Origin: an uncultured Gemmatimonadales bacterium
GTDB lineage: Bacteria; Gemmatimonadota; Gemmatimonadetes; Longimicrobiales; RSA9
Direction: 5' to 3'
DNA: 64,000 bases
NCBI GenBank assembly: GCA_963783305.1
Contig: CAWAMW010000015.1
Span: forward strand, 320,001 to 384,000
Shown here: positions 39,001-48,000 of the stretch, in pieces
How the letters are laid out: every line of letters begins with the position of its first letter
Position numbering within the stretch: the stretch's first letter is position 1
Program-made: the position numbers

Positions 39001-42000
39001 ATAGGTATCCTCAGTGATAATCCACTACTTCAACGTCGTCAGCCCCACGATCAGACCAGACGAAGCAGATCCGGTACTGATCGTTGATCCGAATACTGTG
39101 CTGTCCCGCCCGATCTCCTTTGAGACCCTCCAATCGGTTCCCCGGGGGGACCCGTAGGTCCTCCAGCGCCTCCGCTTGATCAATGGCGTCCAGCTTCCGA
39201 CGTCCTCTTCTCCAGAGTTCGCTCAGGAGCCGCTGCCGAACGGCCTTCGCGTCCACTCCGTTAAAGAGGTCTTCTGTCGCCTTGTCAGAGAACGATCTGA
39301 TCACAACAACATGATAACACGGATACCATGCTACTCCAACGCTTCCATTTTCTGCGCTCTACTACCGCGCTCTAACGCCCTGGCGTTCACCTGCGGCGCG
39401 CGCAGCGCGCTGTCAGGTGCAACGCCTCGTTAGACAGCGCATCTTCAATCCTCCAACACATCAGCCCAAAACTCATCCGTAGCTGCGCTGCACTTCAGGT
39501 GCAATGTGCACACTAAACTCACCTCGAAGGGCTCAATCCGCTTCTGGAGCCCTTCCAAGCTTCTTCTCGCCTCAGCGGCATCTACAGAAAAACGGCCAAG
39601 GGCGGGTCGAAAGCCGCTGATCCATGTTTTCGCGATTGCATCCCCTGCGAACAGAGTACCGCGATACAGGTAGGCCGCACTTCCTGCCGTATGCCCCGGC
39701 ACGAGGAACGCCCGCAACGTATCACGACCAAACGCGAACAGCGTATCCGACGAAAAAGTACGTACCTGAACTTCGTCAGGAGACGGCAGGTCGCTCCCAT
39801 TGATCTTCTCCGCCAAAGATGGCAACCACCCTCCGTGCGCCTCTCTTCCGAATAGCAACTCCGCTTCGGCCGCCGCCACGTAAAAAGGCGCATGTCGAAC
39901 GCTCCTCCACGCCCCCAGATGATCTCGATGGGAGTGCGTCAGAAAGACCGCGATCACGTCATCCGTAGTAGCCCCCAGTTGCTTCAACCCCTCGGCAAGA
40001 GCTTCATCCGCTCCCCACCACCCCAAGTCGATCAGTACGACGCCGCCTTCCACACGATGGAAAAAGATCGCGCTACGGTTTAGGCCACCGGTCGAGACGA
40101 CCAACGAGTGAGGCGGTGCTTGTAGAGTAGGCGGCACGTGCAGTGCACATCCAGAAACAACCAACAACAGAAGCATGAAGCCACGCATCGATATTTCCTA
40201 CCTAGTTGGCTGTAACATATTATGGCGGCCCCAGCCACTTCTTGCCCACCTCCACGGGCTAATTGTCGCCATGCTTTCAGCCGAACTCCCGTTCACTCGC
40301 GCTGTATAACGCGCTTCTATACTGCGATCGATTCCAGTTAGAGTGTCCGTTTCTGCTGCGAATGCGTCTGCGTGCGCCCGTAGGCTCGGCGACCAGACCT
40401 CCGCGGCCGGTGTCCTCAGCGCGCGGCGTCGTTCTCTGTTACGGCGCGGTTCCAGGGATTGCAGTGTAATCGCTGTTCGCACGGCAGTGGCGGCAGCCTA
40501 AGTGCGGAGGGGGCGTTGGGGGGTCAGGCTGCATAATTCGCTGCGGGGGTCCGTCGGTCAAGCGTCCGGGGTGGGCGAGGGGTTTCGGTGAGGGCGCCCG
40601 CCGACTCTCCGGGGCTGTCCTTCCCAGTCGGTCTTCTCACGGGACGCGCCATTGCATCTGCTGGCGGGGGTCGGGATCAACCGTCGGCGCCGGTCGGTCG
40701 GGTATCGGGGAGCTTGCCGCGGTGGGTGGGATCCCATTGGCGGGTTGCGAGGGTCCAGGTCGGGGATCCGCTGGGCCGTGGCCTACCGATGACGGGAGGG
40801 CGAAGTTGTCGTCATCGGGGCGGTAGAGGGGGCTGCGGATGGGGAGGCCGGACAACTCGACCACGTGGAGGTAGATGGTGGTGGTGCGGAGATCCCTATG
40901 TCGGGTGGAGCGTTACAGCCGCCCGAAGTGCTCCGCCACCCGCGCCAGGAACCGCTCCCACCCACCGGGCGTCTGGAGCAGCACGCGCGGGCATTGCTTC
41001 CCCGTCCAGGAATTGTGGGTCCGGACGTGAGCGAGGGGGATCTCGAGCTCGACGAGGAGGAGTGCGGTGAGGAGGGCGGCGCGGTCGTCGGCGGCGTCCT
41101 GGTCGATGCCGGCGTGCTCGGCGATCTCGATCCCGATGGACGCGGCGTTGCCGCGGGGGCCGGCGTGCCAGGCCACCTCGTCGGTGGGGACGTGCTGGAT
41201 GACCTGGGTGTCATCGACGGTGAAGTGCCAGCTGACCTGGCGGTCGCGGGCGTCGCTGCCGAGCAGGTAGCGGCTGTGCATCTCGGCGTCCGCGCCGGGG
41301 CCGCGGTTGGCGGTGTTGTGGATGGTGATCCACTGCGGGTCGAGGTGGGTGCCGGGGCGATTGGGCGCGCTCGGCGGGATGAGGTCGCGGCGCAGGTTCA
41401 GCCGGGCGCGGGCGTCGGCAATGGCATCGCCGGCGGGCGGGTCGATGGGCGCGAGGAACTGCTTGCTGGCCCAGCCGGTCCCGCCGGGGGCGACGACGAA
41501 GTACCAGCGACCGTCGAGGCTTTCGCCCCACGCCTCGGCGAGCTGCCCCTCGAGCAGCCGCTGTCCGGTGTCGGAGTCCGCCGCGACCTCGGGGCGGGAG
41601 CGGAGGCGGAGGGCGGTGGTGGTGGTGCGGAGGTGTATGGGATCCATGGACGATACGGTGCACCCGTGGACCGTCCCGGGTCAAGCTTCGGATGGGCGGG
41701 GCCTCGCCGCGGCCCGGAAATCCCCCACGCGCGAACCGGGACTTTCCCGATTGTAGCGGGGTGGGGCGGGGTCAAGATTCCTTGGACGGACCCGCGCACG
41801 CGAAGTGAAGCCCCGACTGCGAGGGAGGGAAAGTGACGGCAGGAGTGAAGCGGCCCGAAGCGACCGAGACGGACGCTGTGGCCGGTATCGAAGTGACCCC
41901 GGCGTCGACGCCGACGCCACTGCTCTCGGGCAACGAGGCCATCGCCCGGGGGGCCTGGGAAGCGGGCGTCCGTGTGGGCGCGGGCTATCCCGGCACGCCC

Positions 42001-45000: not shown

Positions 45001-48000
45001 CGTCAGAGGTGCACGGCATGTCGCAGCGTGGCGGGACCGTCGTCACCACCGTCCGGTTCGGCGACGAAGTGCTGTCGCCGTCGGTCCCGGCCGGCGAGGC
45101 GGACTTCCTGGTGGCGTTCGAGCGGCTGGAGGCCGCCCGGCACCTGGACCTGGTCCGGGATGGCGGCGTCGCCGTGGTCAACGACCAGCGGATCGCGCCG
45201 TCCATCGAGGCGCTCAAGAGCGCCGCCTACCCGGGCGAGATCGGCGTTCGGGCCGCGGAGCGGAACGTATCAGTCCTGGTCTATCCGGCCCTCCGCCTGG
45301 CGCAGGAGCTCGGTAACGAGAAGCTCGCGAGTACCATCCTCCTGGGTGGCCTCTCCGATTTCCTCTTCCTCGAGCGCGACCACTGGATCCGCGCGATCCG
45401 GGCATCCGTCCCGCCGCACACGGTCGAGGCGAACGAGGTTGCGTTCGATACCGGCGCGGAATGGCTCGTAGGGCCGCCGACGTTTTCGTTCTGAGGTAGG
45501 GGGAACGGTCGCTGGCGCGACCGGTCGATCGGTCGCTGGCGCGACCTGTCGAACGCTCGCTTCGCTCGCTATCGAACGCGTTGGGCTTCGCCCTCGCTAT
45601 CGACCGGACACTGCCCTTTCCCCTCGCCGGTCAGTACTCTCGCGCGGCCTCTTCCCCGGCCAGGACCCGCTGGGCGCCCTCGGCCAGCGCCCGCAGCTCG
45701 TCCTCGCCGGGGTAGGCCGTCACCGGCGCGATCCACTGGAGCGTCCGCGTCAACTCTCCGGCCACCCGCTCGCTCTTCGCCATCCCGCCGGTGAGGAGCA
45801 CGGCGTCGACCCGGCCATCGAGGACGGCGGCCATGGCGCCGACCTCCTTCCGGAGCTGGTAGAGCATGGCGTCGAGGACGAGGCGGGCGCGGTCATCGCC
45901 GTCGTCTATGCGAGCCTCGACCTCCCGGAGGTCGCGGGTGCCCAGGTAGGAGTGGATGCCGCCCTCGCGGAAGAGGAGCCGCTCCGCGGACGCCAGGTCG
46001 AGTCCCCCGGTCAACACGCGCTCGATCAGTCGAACGGTGGGGACGGTGCCGGCGCGCTCGGTGGAGAACGCGCCCTCCTCCCGGGAATTGGTGACGTCGA
46101 TCATGCGGCCATCACGGTGGGCGGAGACGCTGTGGCCGCTGCCCATGTGGACGACGATGAGCCGCAGCTCGGCGTACAGGGCTCCCGCCTGGCGGGCGTG
46201 CCGCTTCGCCACGGCCTTGGTATTCAGGGCGTGGGAGAGGCAGTCGCGCTCCAGGCCCTCCAGGCCGGACAGCCGGGCCACGGGCGGCCACTCGTCCACG
46301 CTCACCGGGTCCACGATGAAGGATGGGCAGCCGGCGGGCTCGGCGAGTCGCCGGGCCAGGGCGGCGCCGAGGTTCGACGCATGATCGCCCCGCAGCGCCT
46401 GCCGGAGCTCGGTCAGCATGGCGTCGGTGACGCGGTAGGTGCCGCTCTCCAGTGGGCGGAGCAGCCCGCCGCGACCGACGGTGGCGCGGAGGGCCGACAG
46501 ATCGATGTCCTCCTCGTGGAGCAGGGCCAGCACGGCGGCGAGCCGACTCTCCAGCTGCGCCAGCACGGGACGCCCGCGGAACGCCGACAGCTCGGTGTCG
46601 TTGAGCTCGACGGTCGCCTGGAAGCGGGCGGTGTCGCCGTCGTATACAGCGAGCTTCGTGGACGTGGAGCCGGGGTTCAGGGCGAGGATCACGACGCTCG
46701 CCTCGCGATGAGGACGCCGAGAGCGATGGAGTGCAGCTTGTCCTCCGCGCTCTCCACCCGCGACGGGATCAGCAGCGGGACCGCCGCGCCCACCACCACA
46801 TGGGCGGTGATGGAGCCGCCCAGGTACTTCACGCCCTTGCCCAGGATGTTGCCGGCCTCGATCCCCGGCGCGACCATGATGTCCGCCCGGCCCGCCACGG
46901 GACCCGTGATCCCCTTGGCCGCCGCGGCCGACTCCAGCAGCGCGTTGTCCAGCGCCAGCGGGCCCGCGACATCGGCGTTCGGGATCGACGCCGCCGCCCA
47001 TTCGGCGACCGCCCGCGCCGCGCCCGTCGAGGGCACCGCCTCGCTCACCGCCTCACTGGCGCTCAGCAACGCGACCCGGGGACGCTCGTGGCCCAGCGCA
47101 CGAAAGACCTCAACGGCGTTGGCCACGATGGCCTTCAGCATCTCCACATCCGGGGCAGGGTTGATCCCGCCATCCGTGACGCCCACGAGACGGGGCGCGG
47201 GGCCGAGAGTGTCCTCGTAGATCAGCACGTCGGAGAGGAGCCGACCGGTGCGGAGCCCGGCGTCGCGGTCGAGCGCGGCGCGCAGCAGCTGGTCGGTCCG
47301 GAGCGACCCCTTCAGCAGCACCCGCGCGCCCCCCTCCCGGGCCAGCGCCACCGCCCGGCGGGCCGCCTCCTCGGGGTCACCGGCCTCGACGAAGCGGGCG
47401 TCCTCGAGCCCGGCGATGGCCTCCGAGTCGATGATCGACCGGATGACCGTCCCGGCCCCCACCAGCACCGGCTCCGCCAGCCCCGCACGCGCCGCCGCGC
47501 CCAGCGCCCGGAGCCCCGATGGGCTGTCGGCCGCCACCAGCGCCACGGTCACGGCCGGCCCCTCGGCGGCGAGCCGGAGGAGGTCGGTGAAGCGGGCGGG
47601 TGCCATCTTGACGCTCGGTGCGCCTTCCGGGTCGGGTGTCAGCGTCGCGTCCGTGTTCGGGGAATGGGAGCCCCGCCGCTCCGGCGGAGGGTCCCGGGAA
47701 TATGCCGGCCGGGAGAGGGGCCGACCAGTCGGGATAATGCCGCCGACCGCGGCGGCCGGAGGTGGGGAAAACCCCCGCCTCCCTGCGGTGGAACCCCCGA
47801 TTGCCGCCGGTGCCGCGCCCGTGTAGGGTGCACGTACAGGTCGGCCAACCAATCGAGGGGTATCCCATATGGGTCGGACACGAACACTGATTCTCGGCGC
47901 CGCCGGGCGCGATTTCCATAATTTCAACGTCGTCTACCGCGGCGATCCCAATGTGGAGGTGGTGGGCTTCACCGCCGAGCAGATCCCGGGGATCGAGGGG

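What a model noticed while it worked through the whole genome (the two positions that open the first line are those of the whole stretch)
41833..45500. Indolepyruvate/2-oxoacid oxidoreductase alpha subunit fused to a GltD-type NAD(P)H oxidoreductase
g02641 (1019 aa) carries the pyrimidine- and TPP-binding domains of IorA and then, where ordinary IorA ends in a small two-cluster ferredoxin domain, a full glutamate-synthase-small-subunit-like module (Fer4_20 plus FAD/NAD(P)-binding Pyr_redox_2); iorB follows, and butyrate kinase and phosphotransbutyrylase face it. Boldest reading: the fusion wires 2-oxoacid oxidation straight to NAD(P)+ without free ferredoxin, giving a pyridine-nucleotide-linked route from aromatic or branched-chain amino acids to acyl-CoA, ATP and NAD(P)H. 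New would be an NAD(P)-dependent member of the 2-oxoacid:ferredoxin oxidoreductase superfamily.
Evidence so far: pfam.tsv thinned: POR_N 40-201, TPP_enzyme_C 391-535, Fer4_20 590-647, Pyr_redox_2 708-1001; g02642 POR gamma/IorB 201 aa, g02643 butyrate kinase, g02644 PTA_PTB. Protein search: about 100 best clusters (49-93% identity, 985-1064 aa) carry PF01855+PF02775+PF14691+PF07992 together, from Longimicrobiales, Bipolaricaulota/Acetothermia and others; unfused IorA of 579-590 aa with PF00037/PF12797 ferredoxin domains appear only further down at 53-56% identity over 56% of the query. neighbours.tsv: Fer4_20 or Pyr_redox_2 beside POR in 224-233 of 457 Longimicrobiales and about 15,000-17,700 genomes overall. 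A separate GltD-like gene g02901 sits inside the por operon g02900-g02903. No paper found with [...]
(Added by a program. Inside this text positions count along the whole contig: contig position 320,001 is position 1 of the stretch shown here. "Call 12" and the like, gene names such as g00115 and contig names such as C1 are that model's own, and its searches are not shown. The text may have been shortened before it was handed on; [...] marks where a part breaks off. The agent that wrote the report below was given it as the finding of a first reader that could run no searches.)

Follow-up and report, generated by a model that had tools for sequence, protein, structure and literature searches.

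The report
Oxoacid oxidoreductase fused to NADPH flavoprotein
A soil bacterium's enzyme for breaking down amino-acid-derived keto acids is permanently joined to a flavoprotein that most likely hands the electrons straight to NADP+ instead of to free ferredoxin; the design is real and unstudied, but it is a variation on known themes.

Summary
Confirmed: window 41833-44892 (+) is one intact 1019-aa gene. It is an IorA that runs without a break into a GltD/NfnB-type FAD/NADPH module, and an overlapping iorB follows.

- The IorA ferredoxin domain is retained, not replaced.
- The GltD module is cut down at its N-terminus. Only the ligands of the FAD-proximal cluster remain (C601, C640, C644, E683), so an IorA ferredoxin cluster seems to stand in for the GltD distal cluster.

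The module keeps the NADP(H)-contact arginines. It lacks the marks of bifurcating NfnB: no nfnA-type domain was found in the genome and there is no Arg333.

Best reading (0.6): a ferredoxin-independent 2-oxoacid:NADP+ oxidoreductase that feeds acyl-CoA to the neighbouring ptb/buk for ATP.

The family is real but narrow (98 full-length clusters at 90% identity, five at 50%) and forms one clade. A second, independent IorA-GltD fusion and a separate GltD-PorD subunit also exist.

NAD(P)-linked OFORs are already known (PNO, PadEFGHI, Azoarcus KGOR). This is therefore a new variant, not a new kind. Ten literature searches found no paper on it. This scan noted the same fusion twice before on other genomes.

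The parts
41833..44892 (+). iorA-gltD fusion gene, 1019 aa (P0001)
   Evidence: The ORF is intact. Pfam and NCBIfam give the domains. There are 98 full-length homologous clusters. AlphaFold2 model: mean pLDDT 83.4, pTM 0.76.
41950..42435 (+). POR_N pyrimidine-binding domain (aa 40-201)
   Evidence: PF01855, E 1e-13. It lies inside the TIGR03336 IOR_alpha match, aa 30-599.
43003..43437 (+). TPP-binding domain (aa 391-535). C369, C372, C394 and C541 around it are the presumed ligands of the TPP-proximal [4Fe-4S] cluster.
   Evidence: PF02775, E 6.9e-18. The four Cys are invariant in 30 of 30 fused proteins and in the unfused IorA. Their role as cluster ligands is recalled from PFOR structures and was not tested here.
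43489..43626 (+). Retained IorA ferredoxin domain (aa 553-598) with two [4Fe-4S] motifs: C560/C563/C566/C571 and C588/C591/C594/C598
   Evidence: Fer4_10 matches aa 553-598. The IOR_alpha profile is matched to position 591 of 595. All 8 Cys are invariant in 30 of 30 fused proteins. Unfused IorA ends just after C598.
43624..43635 (+). Fusion junction C598-A-D-C601. The last Cys of the IorA ferredoxin motif sits three residues before the first Cys of the GltD part.
   Evidence: Alignments A1 and A2. The NfnB motif C..C....C...CP aligns with C591, C594, C598 and C601. Public contigs bridge this point.
43633..43953 (+). Cut-down GltD N-terminal (Fer4_20) domain, aa 601-707. It holds C601, C640, C644 and E683, the ligand set of the FAD-proximal cluster, and a lineage-specific insert at about aa 648-677.
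   Evidence: Fer4_20 profile positions 23-84 of 113 only. E683 aligns with Glu126 of PfNfnI-B, which PMC12221290 names as the non-Cys ligand of the proximal cluster. C601, C640 and C644 are present in 30 of 30, E683 in 29 of 30. Cys at the position of the third motif-2 Cys is present in 0 of 30.
43954..44835 (+). FAD / NAD(P)H-binding domain (aa 708-1001): GSGPAG at 713, GGGNTA at 845, Y868-R869-R870
   Evidence: PF07992, E 4.2e-32. R753, R805, R870 and R926 align with Arg201, Arg253, Arg325 and Arg382 of PfNfnI-B (residue roles from PMC12221290). The best solved relatives are NfnABC, Stn, NfnI, NfnB and GltD.
44889..45494 (+). iorB (201 aa), the CoA-binding gamma-type subunit. Its start overlaps the iorA stop (ATGA).
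   Evidence: PF01558, E 5.4e-38. NF005322 scores 195.9 bits. It lies directly downstream in 12 of 12 type-1 loci examined.
45631..46692 (-). Butyrate kinase (buk), about 353 aa, convergent with iorB
   Evidence: NF002834 scores 449 bits against cut-off 222. TIGR02707 scores 412 bits against 289. The match begins at residue 104 of the frame 45631-47001. The gene is conserved beside the fusion in L104 and L011.
46689..47927 (-). Phosphate butyryl/acyl-transferase (ptb). Coordinates are those of the ORF frame; the true start is probably near 47610.
   Evidence: PF01515, E 1.7e-36. The NCBIfam ptb/pta models match from residue 106-113 of the frame, all below their cut-offs. The gene is conserved in L104 and L011.

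Best explanation
IorA-GltD plus IorB form a self-contained 2-oxoacid:NAD(P)+ oxidoreductase, most likely NADP+-linked. The likely substrates are arylpyruvates and/or branched-chain 2-oxoacids.

Proposed path of the electrons:
1. The TPP site decarboxylates the 2-oxoacid and makes acyl-CoA. CoA is held by IorB.
2. The two electrons leave one at a time through the core [4Fe-4S] cluster (C369, C372, C394, C541).
3. They pass the two clusters of the retained ferredoxin domain.
4. They reach the one remaining GltD cluster (C601, C640, C644, E683).
5. They reach FAD, which collects them and reduces NADP+ by hydride transfer.

No free ferredoxin is needed and the flavin does not bifurcate. An IorA ferredoxin cluster takes the place of the distal cluster of the GltD module.

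In the Longimicrobiales lineage the acyl-CoA then goes to the neighbouring Ptb and Buk, which yield the acid and ATP.

Shown here: the gene, its domains, the invariant ligand sets, the residue correspondences, the context and the phylogeny. Inferred: cluster occupancy, the order of the wire, the acceptor, the direction and the substrate.
For: 1. The reading frame is unbroken and conserved. 98 of the 120 best clusters are full length, and 114 of 120 carry the junction motif.
2. In alignment A2, all 15 candidate Cys ligands are present in 30 of 30 fused proteins, E683 in 29 of 30, R869 in 30 of 30 and R870 in 29 of 30.
3. E683 aligns with Glu126 of PfNfnI-B, which is the non-Cys ligand of the FAD-proximal cluster (PMC12221290 section 5). 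The Open Biology review gives the DPD path as FAD to nFeS2 (the non-Cys cluster) to nFeS1. The cluster kept here is therefore the one next to FAD.
4. R753, R805, R870 and R926 align with the FAD/NADP(H)-contact arginines Arg201, Arg253, Arg325 and Arg382.
5. The marks of bifurcating NfnB are absent:
   - The Arg333 position is Ile (Arg in 0 of 30).
   - No nfnA lies nearby; upstream is an amidase.
   - No DHODB_Fe-S_bind (NfnA-type) domain was found in the 96%-complete genome.
6. Stand-alone Fer4_20+Pyr_redox_2 proteins without nfnA were purified and shown to be NADPH-linked ferredoxin:NADP+ oxidoreductases, assayed with PFOR plus ferredoxin (PMC12221290).
7. The same partnership recurs in other forms:
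   - A separate GltD-PorD subunit (PRK12771, 548 bits against cut-off 516) sits in the porD position of this genome's por operon.
   - An independent type-2 IorA-GltD-Fd fusion exists.
8. The AlphaFold2 model is compact: pTM 0.76, with the junction blocks at pLDDT 64-93.
9. buk and ptb flank the fusion in 3 of 3 Longimicrobiales-type loci. An OFOR/phosphotransacylase/kinase trio is a characterised ATP-yielding route (abstract of PMC13285125).
Against: - There is no biochemistry for any member.
- The nearest solved relatives of the module are all parts of electron-bifurcating enzymes: NfnABC, Stn, NfnI and NfnB. In three of them (9n5u, 9bov, 8oh5) the Arg333 position is also not Arg, so that criterion is not universal.
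- NADP+ over NAD+ rests on aligned arginines only. R805 is Arg in just 17 of 30.
- The distal-cluster takeover is read from motifs. I had no model coordinates, so no cluster-to-cluster distances.
- The IOR equivalog scores fall just below the curated cut-offs: alpha 634.1 against 650.9, beta 142.7 against 205.8. The substrate is therefore open.
- The genome has Rnf/Nqr-type genes and two NiFe hydrogenases, so it does not lack ferredoxin sinks that would make the fusion necessary.
- buk/ptb are not near the fusion in 0 of 9 P0046-like loci.
Confidence: 0.6

Rival explanations
1. Dual-outlet enzyme. Free ferredoxin or flavodoxin remains a physiological acceptor at the surface-exposed ferredoxin-domain cluster. 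The fused module works as a built-in ferredoxin:NADP+ oxidoreductase, a valve that balances the ferredoxin and NADPH pools in either direction.
For: - The complete IorA ferredoxin domain, the normal docking and exit site, is retained with all 8 Cys.
- The genome has ferredoxin-using systems: Rnf/Nqr-type genes, an RnfB-like protein, other OFORs and hydrogenases.
- Relatives of the module are ferredoxin:NADP+ oxidoreductases.
Against: - Fusion at the very last Cys of the ferredoxin domain probably buries that domain against the GltD helices. The model is compact, pTM 0.76.
- A covalent wire makes a diffusible carrier unnecessary.
- There is nothing direct either way.
Confidence: 0.15
2. Flavin-based electron bifurcation or confurcation. 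The FAD splits or merges electron pairs between the low-potential OFOR wire and a second, higher-potential partner not encoded here. This could, for example, allow NADPH-driven reductive carboxylation of acyl-CoA to a 2-oxoacid for amino-acid synthesis.
For: - The best sequence and fold matches are all bifurcating enzymes: T. sibiricus and C. saccharolyticus NfnABC, Sporomusa StnABC, NfnI and NfnB.
- The proximal cluster keeps the Glu ligand (E683). In NfnI this FAD-proximal cluster was assigned a very low potential, and its site-differentiated ligand is Glu126.
Against: - No second electron path is visible. There is no NfnA-type domain in the genome, no extra redox domain in the protein and no conserved third gene in 12 loci.
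- The Arg333 position is Ile or another non-Arg residue in 30 of 30.
- The same Glu is also present in the non-bifurcating Fnor class.
Confidence: 0.08
3. The flavoprotein module reduces something other than a pyridine nucleotide, such as a disulfide, polysulfide or quinone. NAD(P)H would then be a donor for another reaction.
For: The family was first annotated through a 'sulfide dehydrogenase' activity. Another copy of the module in this genome sits with dsrAB-like genes, which shows the module is used with varied partners.
Against: - The second Rossmann fold (GGGNTA) and the NADP(H)-contact arginines are conserved.
- There is no redox-active CxxC pair in the flavin domain. The only Cys residues after 644 are 775, 853 and 984.
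- The sulfide dehydrogenase was later identified as NfnI (review passage).
Confidence: 0.05
4. The fusion is an artefact (frameshift repair, chimeric assembly) or a decaying gene.
For: One related contig (L106) has an in-frame TAG in its copy. P0113 is a frameshifted relative.
Against: - There are 98 full-length clusters from several sources.
- The gene is intact in 6 of 7 metagenome loci translated.
- Independent contigs bridge the junction.
- The ligands are invariant.
Confidence: 0.01

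Closest known systems
Indolepyruvate:ferredoxin oxidoreductase IorAB (NCBIfam TIGR03336 / TIGR03334; Pyrococcus furiosus type, Mai & Adams 1994, seen only in reference lists)
   Same: - The alpha subunit has POR_N, the TPP domain, the core cluster and a C-terminal two-cluster ferredoxin domain.
- A separate gamma-type beta subunit is encoded directly downstream.
- The IorA part is 53-56% identical to unfused IorA and nests inside the IorA tree.
   Different: - About 420 extra C-terminal residues carry one more Fe-S site, FAD and an NAD(P)H site.
- The curated equivalog scores are narrowly missed.
- The acceptor is presumably NADP+, not ferredoxin.
Cac_0764-type [4Fe-4S]/FAD ferredoxin:NADP+ oxidoreductases and NfnB (PMC12221290; PDB 5jca, 4ylf)
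   Same: - Fer4_20 + Pyr_redox_2 module.
- Glu ligand of the proximal cluster.
- FAD and NADP(H) arginines.
- Like the Fnor class, no nfnA and no Arg333.
   Different: - It is not a free-standing protein.
- Its N-terminal cluster domain is cut down and spliced onto an OFOR ferredoxin domain, so the electron donor is covalently attached.
PRK12771 (NF009410) 'NAD(P)-binding protein': a GltD module with a C-terminal PorD-like ferredoxin domain, encoded in the porD position of four-subunit OFOR operons
   Same: - It shows the same partnership of an OFOR with a GltD-type module.
- It is the best-scoring NCBIfam model for the C-terminal half (344.7 bits).
- This genome's own copy is 46% identical.
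- It lies beside the fusion in L106.
   Different: - It is a separate subunit with the opposite domain order (GltD then Fd).
- The fusion misses the model's cut-off (516 bits).
- I found no characterised member. My guess that the Azoarcus KGOR third subunit is of this type is recalled and untested.
Pyruvate:NADP+ oxidoreductase (PNO) of Euglena gracilis and Cryptosporidium parvum (Rotte et al. 2001, seen in the reference list of PMC13768988)
   Same: An OFOR covalently fused at its C-terminus to an NADP+-reducing flavoprotein, giving a ferredoxin-independent 2-oxoacid:NADP+ reaction.
   Different: - PNO is a eukaryotic PFOR.
- Its flavoprotein is of the cytochrome-P450-reductase type (recalled).
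- None of those domains is among the 23 Pfam families hit here.
Phenylglyoxylate:NAD+ oxidoreductase PadEFGHI of Azoarcus evansii (Hirsch et al. 1998, cited in PMC5109826; NCBIfam NF045762-NF045765)
   Same: A bacterial OFOR-family enzyme of aromatic amino-acid catabolism that reduces a pyridine nucleotide through an added flavoprotein.
   Different: - It has five separate subunits.
- Its flavoprotein PadH is another type. The PadH model's 7 matches in this genome do not include the fusion or the other two GltD-like genes.
2-oxoglutarate:NADP+ oxidoreductase of Azoarcus evansii (Ebenau-Jehle et al. 2003, title seen in the reference list of PMC8163825; paper not held)
   Same: A bacterial OFOR that reduces NADP+.
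   Different: - The substrate is 2-oxoglutarate and the enzyme has several subunits.
- Its subunit make-up could not be read here.
HpdDEFG / HpdJ / HpdK trio of Clostridium scatologenes (PMC13285125, abstract read)
   Same: Arylpyruvate OFOR plus phosphate acyltransferase plus acyl kinase, giving arylacetate and ATP. The Longimicrobiales loci have the same gene trio.
   Different: That OFOR reduces ferredoxin and has no flavoprotein module.

Membership tests
IOR (IorAB; TIGR03336/TIGR03334) | Alpha chain with POR_N and the TPP-binding domain in one polypeptide | tested here: met
   PF01855 at aa 40-201 and PF02775 at aa 391-535.
IOR (IorAB; TIGR03336/TIGR03334) | C-terminal two-[4Fe-4S] ferredoxin domain on the alpha chain | tested here: met
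   The 8 Cys at 560-598 are invariant in 30 of 30 fused proteins and in the unfused IorA. The IOR_alpha profile is matched to position 591 of 595.
IOR (IorAB; TIGR03336/TIGR03334) | Separate gamma-type beta subunit encoded next to alpha | tested here: met
   PF01558 protein at 44889-45494. It is present in 12 of 12 type-1 loci examined.
IOR (IorAB; TIGR03336/TIGR03334) | Score above the curated equivalog cut-offs | tested here: not met
   Alpha scores 634.1 against 650.9. Beta scores 142.7 against 205.8 (TIGR03334) and 195.9 against 237 (NF005322).
IOR (IorAB; TIGR03336/TIGR03334) | Placement within the IorA clade | tested here: met
   In the FastTree of 115 IorA parts, the type-1 clade (support 98) nests among unfused IorA.
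IOR (IorAB; TIGR03336/TIGR03334) | Arylpyruvate substrates and ferredoxin as acceptor | not testable with these tools
   This needs an enzyme assay.
GltD-like module (Fer4_20 + Pyr_redox_2) | Both Pfam domains above their gathering scores | tested here: met
   Fer4_20 scores 35.0 against 25.8. Pyr_redox_2 scores 112.2 against 26.1.
GltD-like module (Fer4_20 + Pyr_redox_2) | Two complete N-terminal [4Fe-4S] ligand sets of its own | tested here: not met
   Only profile positions 23-84 of 113 are matched. The proximal set (C601, C640, C644, E683) is present. The last motif-2 Cys is absent in 30 of 30. The first motif overlaps the IorA ferredoxin motif.
GltD-like module (Fer4_20 + Pyr_redox_2) | FAD and NADP(H) binding residues | tested here: met
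   GSGPAG at 713 and GGGNTA at 845. R753, R870 and R926 are Arg in 27-29 of 30; R805 is Arg in 17 of 30.
NfnB (bifurcating subunit of NfnAB) | nfnA gene directly upstream, or an NfnA partner | tested here: not met
   The module is fused to IorA. An amidase gene lies upstream. PF10418 has 0 matches in the 96%-complete genome.
NfnB (bifurcating subunit of NfnAB) | Conserved Arg333 (PfNfnI-B numbering) near the flavin | tested here: not met
   The aligned position is I878. Arg occurs there in 0 of 30. The criterion comes from PMC12221290.
NfnB (bifurcating subunit of NfnAB) | Extended free N-terminus | tested here: not met
   The N-terminal side is the IorA chain.
Cac_0764-type monofunctional Fnor | Stand-alone Fer4_20+Pyr_redox_2 protein, no nfnA, Arg333 not conserved | tested here: inconclusive
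   The absence of nfnA and of Arg333 fits. The protein is not stand-alone, and no tree with Fnor references was built.
PRK12771 (NF009410) GltD-PorD subunit | Curated cut-off of 516 bits and a C-terminal PorD-like ferredoxin domain | tested here: not met
   The score is 344.7 bits, covering profile positions 108-447 of 566 only. No domain follows residue 1001.
Pyruvate:NADP+ oxidoreductase (PNO) | PFOR fused to a P450-reductase-type FMN/FAD module (feature recalled) | tested here: not met
   No flavodoxin, FAD_binding_1 or NAD_binding_1 domain is among the 23 Pfam families hit.
PadEFGHI phenylglyoxylate:NAD+ oxidoreductase | PadH-type flavoprotein subunit (NF045765) | tested here: not met
   The model's 7 matches in the genome lie elsewhere. 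None falls on the fusion.

The most novel reading that the evidence does not exclude
The fused flavin is an electron-bifurcating or confurcating centre, as in its nearest solved relatives (NfnABC, Stn, NfnI). Together with a still unseen high-potential partner, it would let NADPH drive the otherwise uphill reductive carboxylation of arylacetyl- or branched acyl-CoA to 2-oxoacids, or let 2-oxoacid oxidation reduce two acceptors at once. That would be the first bifurcating member of the 2-oxoacid oxidoreductase superfamily.
Probability: 0.07. Interest if true: 0.85.

Novelty: new variant of a known kind. Interest (0 to 1): 0.5.

Why it matters
If the reading holds, these bacteria make NADPH directly from the oxidation of amino-acid-derived 2-oxoacids. 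They would do so with an oxygen-sensitive-type (OFOR) catalyst and no lipoate-dependent dehydrogenase complex or soluble ferredoxin.

- **Annotation.** The genes are now called 'indolepyruvate ferredoxin oxidoreductase subunit alpha' or 'FAD-dependent oxidoreductase'. The reading would correct this and change redox balances in metabolic models of Gemmatimonadota and Bipolaricaulota-like MAGs.
- **Enzyme engineering.** It would give enzymologists a compact, two-gene, ferredoxin-free 2-oxoacid:NADP+ oxidoreductase.
- **Modular evolution.** The junction is a worked natural example of splicing two Fe-S wires by sharing a cluster site. Together with the separate GltD-PorD subunit and the independent type-2 fusion, it shows that the same partnership was built at least twice by fusion and once as a subunit.

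Tried and rejected
- **Expression.** No RNA holder was listed for the stretch, so nothing can be said on expression.
- **Assembly or frameshift artefact.** Rejected.
- **'The organism lacks ferredoxin sinks, hence the fusion.'** Rejected. Rnf/Nqr-type genes, two NiFe hydrogenase large subunits, several haem-copper oxidases and five E1-type dehydrogenases are present.
- **PadH as the same module.** Rejected.
- **Promoter and terminator consensus scan of 41500-45800.** 0 and 0 sites.
- **Rfam on 35000-50000.** 0 matches.
- **Genome-contig scan.** It gave mostly unfused IorA and only one type-1 locus, so organism names for the P0100-P0107 clade remain unknown. The listing of cluster members gave no names either.
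- **Tree building.** The IQ-TREE 'quick' run did not finish. FastTree was used instead, and no AU test was run.
- **Foldseek.** The top rows cover only the C-terminal module (TMq about 0.36).
- **Model coordinates.** They are not available to scripts, so no cluster-to-cluster distances.
- **Protein Atlas.** It gave only cluster-level leads: three TPP_enzyme_C+Pyr_redox_2 clusters of 131, 126 and 79 members.
- **Literature for the fusion or the GltD-PorD subunit.** Searches found no paper on it. Further checks:
  - PMC13768988 (PFOR diversity review) has 0 occurrences of 'glutamate synthase'.
  - PMC13290082 has 0 occurrences of my six terms.
  - The one held supplement of PMC12221290 has 0 occurrences of OFOR terms.
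- **Ebenau-Jehle 2003.** The paper is not held, so the subunit type of the Azoarcus NADP+-linked KGOR stays unchecked.
- **Complex prediction.** Not used, because IorA with IorB is a textbook pair.

Full report
**Observation**

The window holds an uninterrupted ORF at 41833-44892 (+) of 1019 aa. Pfam places four domains on it:
- POR_N at aa 40-201
- TPP_enzyme_C at aa 391-535
- Fer4_20 at aa 590-647
- Pyr_redox_2 at aa 708-1001

NCBIfam splits the protein in two:
- An IOR_alpha part, aa 30-599. It covers profile positions 4-591 of 595 and scores 634.1 bits against a cut-off of 650.9.
- A GltD/NfnB-type part, aa about 580-1014. The best models are PRK12771 (344.7 bits), PRK12814 (327) and TIGR01316 (294).

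iorB (201 aa, PF01558) starts at 44889 with its ATG overlapping the iorA stop.

On the minus strand, convergent with iorB, lie two genes:
- Butyrate kinase: NF002834 scores 449 bits against a cut-off of 222.
- A PTA_PTB acyltransferase.

Upstream is a divergent N-acetylmuramoyl-L-alanine amidase.

The fusion is not an artefact:
- Of the 120 best clusters in the 5.8-billion-protein search, 98 are 960-1070 aa long.
- 114 of the 120 carry the junction motif. The 6 without it are ordinary IorA of 585-597 aa, at 53-56% identity.
- Contigs of two public soil runs bridge the junction codons. One has 0 differences and may be the source sample. The other comes from a different study and has 85 differences in 1123 nt.

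**Anatomy of the junction**

Aligning fused and unfused proteins shows that ordinary IorA stops a few residues after the second ferredoxin motif C588-x2-C591-x2-C594-x3-C598. The fused proteins run straight on as A-D-C601-N-A-G-(I/A)-D, then helices, then R-V-C640-P-H-P-C644, then an insert of about 30 residues, then S-V-R-A-V-E683-R.

- The ferredoxin domain is intact.
- The GltD cluster domain is cut down to Fer4_20 profile positions 23-84 of 113.

In the HMMER alignment to Thermotoga NfnB (4ylf_B), the four Cys of its first motif fall on C591, C594, C598 and C601. The Glu of 'LERF' in NfnB and in PfNfnI-B falls on E683. Counting along that alignment, E683 corresponds to Glu126 of PfNfnI-B. 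Huang et al. 2025 (PMC12221290, section 5) name Glu126 as the site-differentiated ligand of the [4Fe-4S] cluster proximal to FAD. The Open Biology review (PMC8097209) gives the DPD path as FAD to nFeS2 to nFeS1, with nFeS2 the non-Cys-ligated cluster.

Conservation in 30 fused proteins:

| Residues | Present in |
|---|---|
| C369, C372, C394, C541 | 30 of 30 |
| C560, C563, C566, C571 | 30 of 30 |
| C588, C591, C594, C598 | 30 of 30 |
| C601, C640, C644 | 30 of 30 |
| E683 | 29 of 30 |
| Cys at the position of the third motif-2 Cys | 0 of 30 |

My inference, which is not shown, is that the FAD-proximal cluster survives, ligated by C601, C640, C644 and E683. The distal GltD cluster is replaced by a cluster of the IorA ferredoxin domain. 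The wire would then be four [4Fe-4S] clusters between TPP and FAD.

The AlphaFold2 model built on the 30-sequence alignment is compact. It has mean pLDDT 83.4 and pTM 0.76, with junction blocks at pLDDT 64-93. I could not read its coordinates.

**What kind of flavoprotein module**

The best sequence and fold matches are NfnABC of Thermococcus sibiricus and Caldicellulosiruptor saccharolyticus, StnABC, NfnI, NfnB, Xfn, GltD and DPD.

Huang et al. separate bifurcating NfnB from monofunctional, NADPH-linked ferredoxin:NADP+ oxidoreductases of the same fold by three marks (section 14). They measured the activity of the latter with PFOR plus ferredoxin as electron source. The three marks, checked here:

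| Mark of NfnB | In this protein |
|---|---|
| Long free N-terminus | The N-terminus is IorA |
| Arg333 | Ile878; Arg in 0 of 30 |
| nfnA gene upstream | No NfnA-type DHODB_Fe-S_bind domain found anywhere in the 96%-complete genome |

The arginines they list at FAD and NADP(H) (Arg201, Arg253, Arg325, Arg382) align with R753, R805, R870 and R926. These are Arg in 29, 17, 29 and 27 of 30 respectively. R869 is invariant.

One caveat applies. In three bifurcating relatives (9n5u, 9bov, 8oh5) the Arg333 position is also not Arg, so this mark alone does not exclude bifurcation.

**Relatives, context and origin**

The junction-specific 161-aa stretch finds only 5 representatives at E<=1e-30 among 1.84 billion 50%-identity representatives. 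This fusion type is therefore a narrow family. Its named members are MAG proteins of Longimicrobiales/Gemmatimonadota and Bipolaricaulota/Acetothermia.

In 401 genomes sampled from the window's phylum, full-length matches were listed in 6:
- G000 itself.
- G167, of the same genus, at 79% identity.
- G012, G003, G009 and G331, at 38-40% identity.

182 weaker matches were not listed.

I examined two of the four distant matches, L102 and L103. They are a second architecture of 1132-1150 aa: IorA core, then a complete PRK12771 unit (GltD followed by a PorD-like ferredoxin domain), again with iorB downstream where I checked.

A FastTree of the IorA parts (115 rows) gives the following:
- The 27 type-1 proteins, plus two truncated ones that still carry the junction motif, form one clade (support 98) among unfused IorA.
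- The two type-2 proteins lie far away (support 100).
- So there were two independent fusions.

The same genome also has the unfused version of the partnership: porC, a 657-aa-frame GltD-PorD protein, porA and porB. The GltD-PorD protein scores 548 bits on NF009410 against a cut-off of 516, and 66.3 on PorD_KorD against 60.05. The third GltD-like gene of the genome sits beside dsrAB-like genes, in the manner of DsrL (the DsrL name is recalled).

Synteny across loci:
- iorB follows the fusion in 12 of 12 type-1 loci examined: the window, L104, L011, and 9 of the 13 metagenome loci.
- buk and ptb flank the fusion in 3 of 3 Longimicrobiales-type loci and in 0 of the 9 P0046-like loci.
- In L106 the fusion is preceded directly by a porC/GltD-PorD/porA/porB set and followed by iorB and a superoxide dismutase gene. 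An upstream GltD-like hit at the same distance occurs in 4 of 5 loci that have enough upstream DNA.

**Mechanism**

The most likely reaction is 2-oxoacid + CoA + NADP+ -> acyl-CoA + CO2 + NADPH. The electrons would be passed one at a time from TPP through four clusters to FAD, which delivers a hydride. Reduction of NAD(P)+ by ferredoxin-level electrons is strongly exergonic (stated in PMC12221290). The standard potentials of about -500 mV and -320 mV are recalled. The enzyme should therefore run in the oxidative direction, like a lipoate-type 2-oxoacid dehydrogenase complex, giving up the energy that free reduced ferredoxin could conserve.

In the Longimicrobiales lineage the acyl-CoA can then give ATP through Ptb and Buk. 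The same three-enzyme logic was shown biochemically for 4-hydroxyphenylpyruvate in Clostridium scatologenes (abstract of PMC13285125).

The substrate is open. The IorA part is IOR-like but narrowly below the equivalog cut-off. The neighbours are butyrate-type kinase and transferase genes, and in G167 a FabH-like gene lies divergently upstream. Branched-chain 2-oxoacids are therefore as plausible as arylpyruvates.

**Rivals**

- A dual-outlet enzyme that still serves ferredoxin (0.15).
- A bifurcating or confurcating flavin (0.08).
- A non-nucleotide acceptor (0.05).
- An artefact (0.01).

An argument from a lack of ferredoxin sinks fails. The genome has Rnf/Nqr-type genes, an RnfB-like protein, other OFORs and two NiFe hydrogenases, besides oxidases and E1-type dehydrogenases.

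**Comparison with what is known**

Pyridine-nucleotide-linked members of the OFOR superfamily already exist. I saw these as citations or family names only:
- PNO of Euglena and Cryptosporidium (reference list).
- PadEFGHI.
- The Azoarcus evansii 2-oxoglutarate:NADP+ oxidoreductase (title only; the paper is not held).

PadH is a different flavoprotein type. PNO's module (recalled) is absent here.

GltD-like modules as NAD(P)H adaptors for Fe-S enzymes are a described theme (PMC8097209). That review's passages list GltS, DPD, Nfn and AegA. Its text has 0 occurrences of 'oxoacid' and one of 'ferredoxin oxidoreductase'.

Seven literature searches aimed at the fusion or at the GltD-PorD subunit found nothing on it. 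Three further searches served the precedents.

Two earlier notes of this scan, on other genomes (e1-2207519 and e1-1398240), describe the same fusion and reach the same reading. They are not independent evidence.

**Verdict**

This is an uncharacterised variant, cluster-sharing and C-terminally fused, of a known design principle. It has a clear enzyme assay that would settle it.

Noticed in passing
window 36000-40200: A stretch of lower G+C (0.58-0.61 against 0.69-0.73 downstream). It holds a Fic/DOC gene (37228-37617), a PIN-domain gene (38093-38500) and a metallo-beta-lactamase-fold gene (39445-40188, minus strand). It looks like a small toxin-antitoxin or mobile island ending just before the amidase and iorA.
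   Followed up: partly
window 45507-45546: Two exact copies of a 16-nt hairpin-forming word lie 8 nt apart in the 136-nt gap between the convergent iorB and buk. There are no other copies in the window; chance gave 2 or more in 7 of 100 shuffles. I did not test any relation.
   Followed up: partly
L008 (G000:C16:198000-210000), 4009-8381: The same genome has a por operon in which the porD position is taken by a GltD module with a C-terminal PorD-like ferredoxin domain. The gene order is porC, GltD-PorD, porA, porB. The GltD-PorD protein passes NF009410 PRK12771 at 548 bits against a cut-off of 516.
   Followed up: yes
L010 (G000:C16:74000-86000), 5398-11982: The third GltD-like gene of the genome (561 aa) lies beside two NIR_SIR genes (dsrAB-like), NrfD, a Fer4_11 protein and a TauE exporter. 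This is a DsrL-like setting in a Longimicrobiales-type genome.
   Followed up: partly
L102 5148-8546 and L103 5456-8908: A second, independent IorA-GltD fusion type of 1132-1150 aa occurs in the same phylum. It consists of the IorA core, a degenerate ferredoxin remnant, and a complete GltD-PorD unit. L103 lies among methylmalonyl-CoA mutase, CoA-transferase, 3-hydroxyacyl-CoA dehydrogenase and 2-hydroxyacyl-CoA dehydratase genes.
   Followed up: partly
L031 1197-11738 (Planctomycetaceae MAG contig): A porC/GltD-PorD/porA/porB set follows two HGD-D genes, two BadF/BcrA-type ATPase genes, an enoyl-CoA hydratase gene and a Zn-ADH gene. This looks like a class I benzoyl-CoA-reductase-like cluster with its own NAD(P)-linked OFOR. 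It recalls the korAB/bzdV ferredoxin-regenerating system mentioned in PMC5736913.
   Followed up: no
L106 2652-11355: In a P0046-like metagenome contig, the GltD-PorD por operon, the type-1 fusion, iorB and an Fe/Mn superoxide dismutase gene lie head to tail. This copy of the fusion has one in-frame TAG (9329-9331) where 99%-identical L105 has Glu.
   Followed up: partly
L009 (G000:C2:279000-292000) and G000:C2:274492-275723: A very long PFOR-like frame (1775 aa), a KorAB-like pair and an RnfB-like Fe-S protein lie a few kb from two Rnf/Nqr-family genes. This would be a ferredoxin-linked counterpart to the NADP-linked enzymes.
   Followed up: no
L104 11416-12978 (G167, same genus): A FabH-like (KAS III) gene lies divergently upstream of the fusion in the sister genome. 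This hints at a link to branched-chain acyl-CoA primers. In the window that position holds an amidase instead.
   Followed up: no
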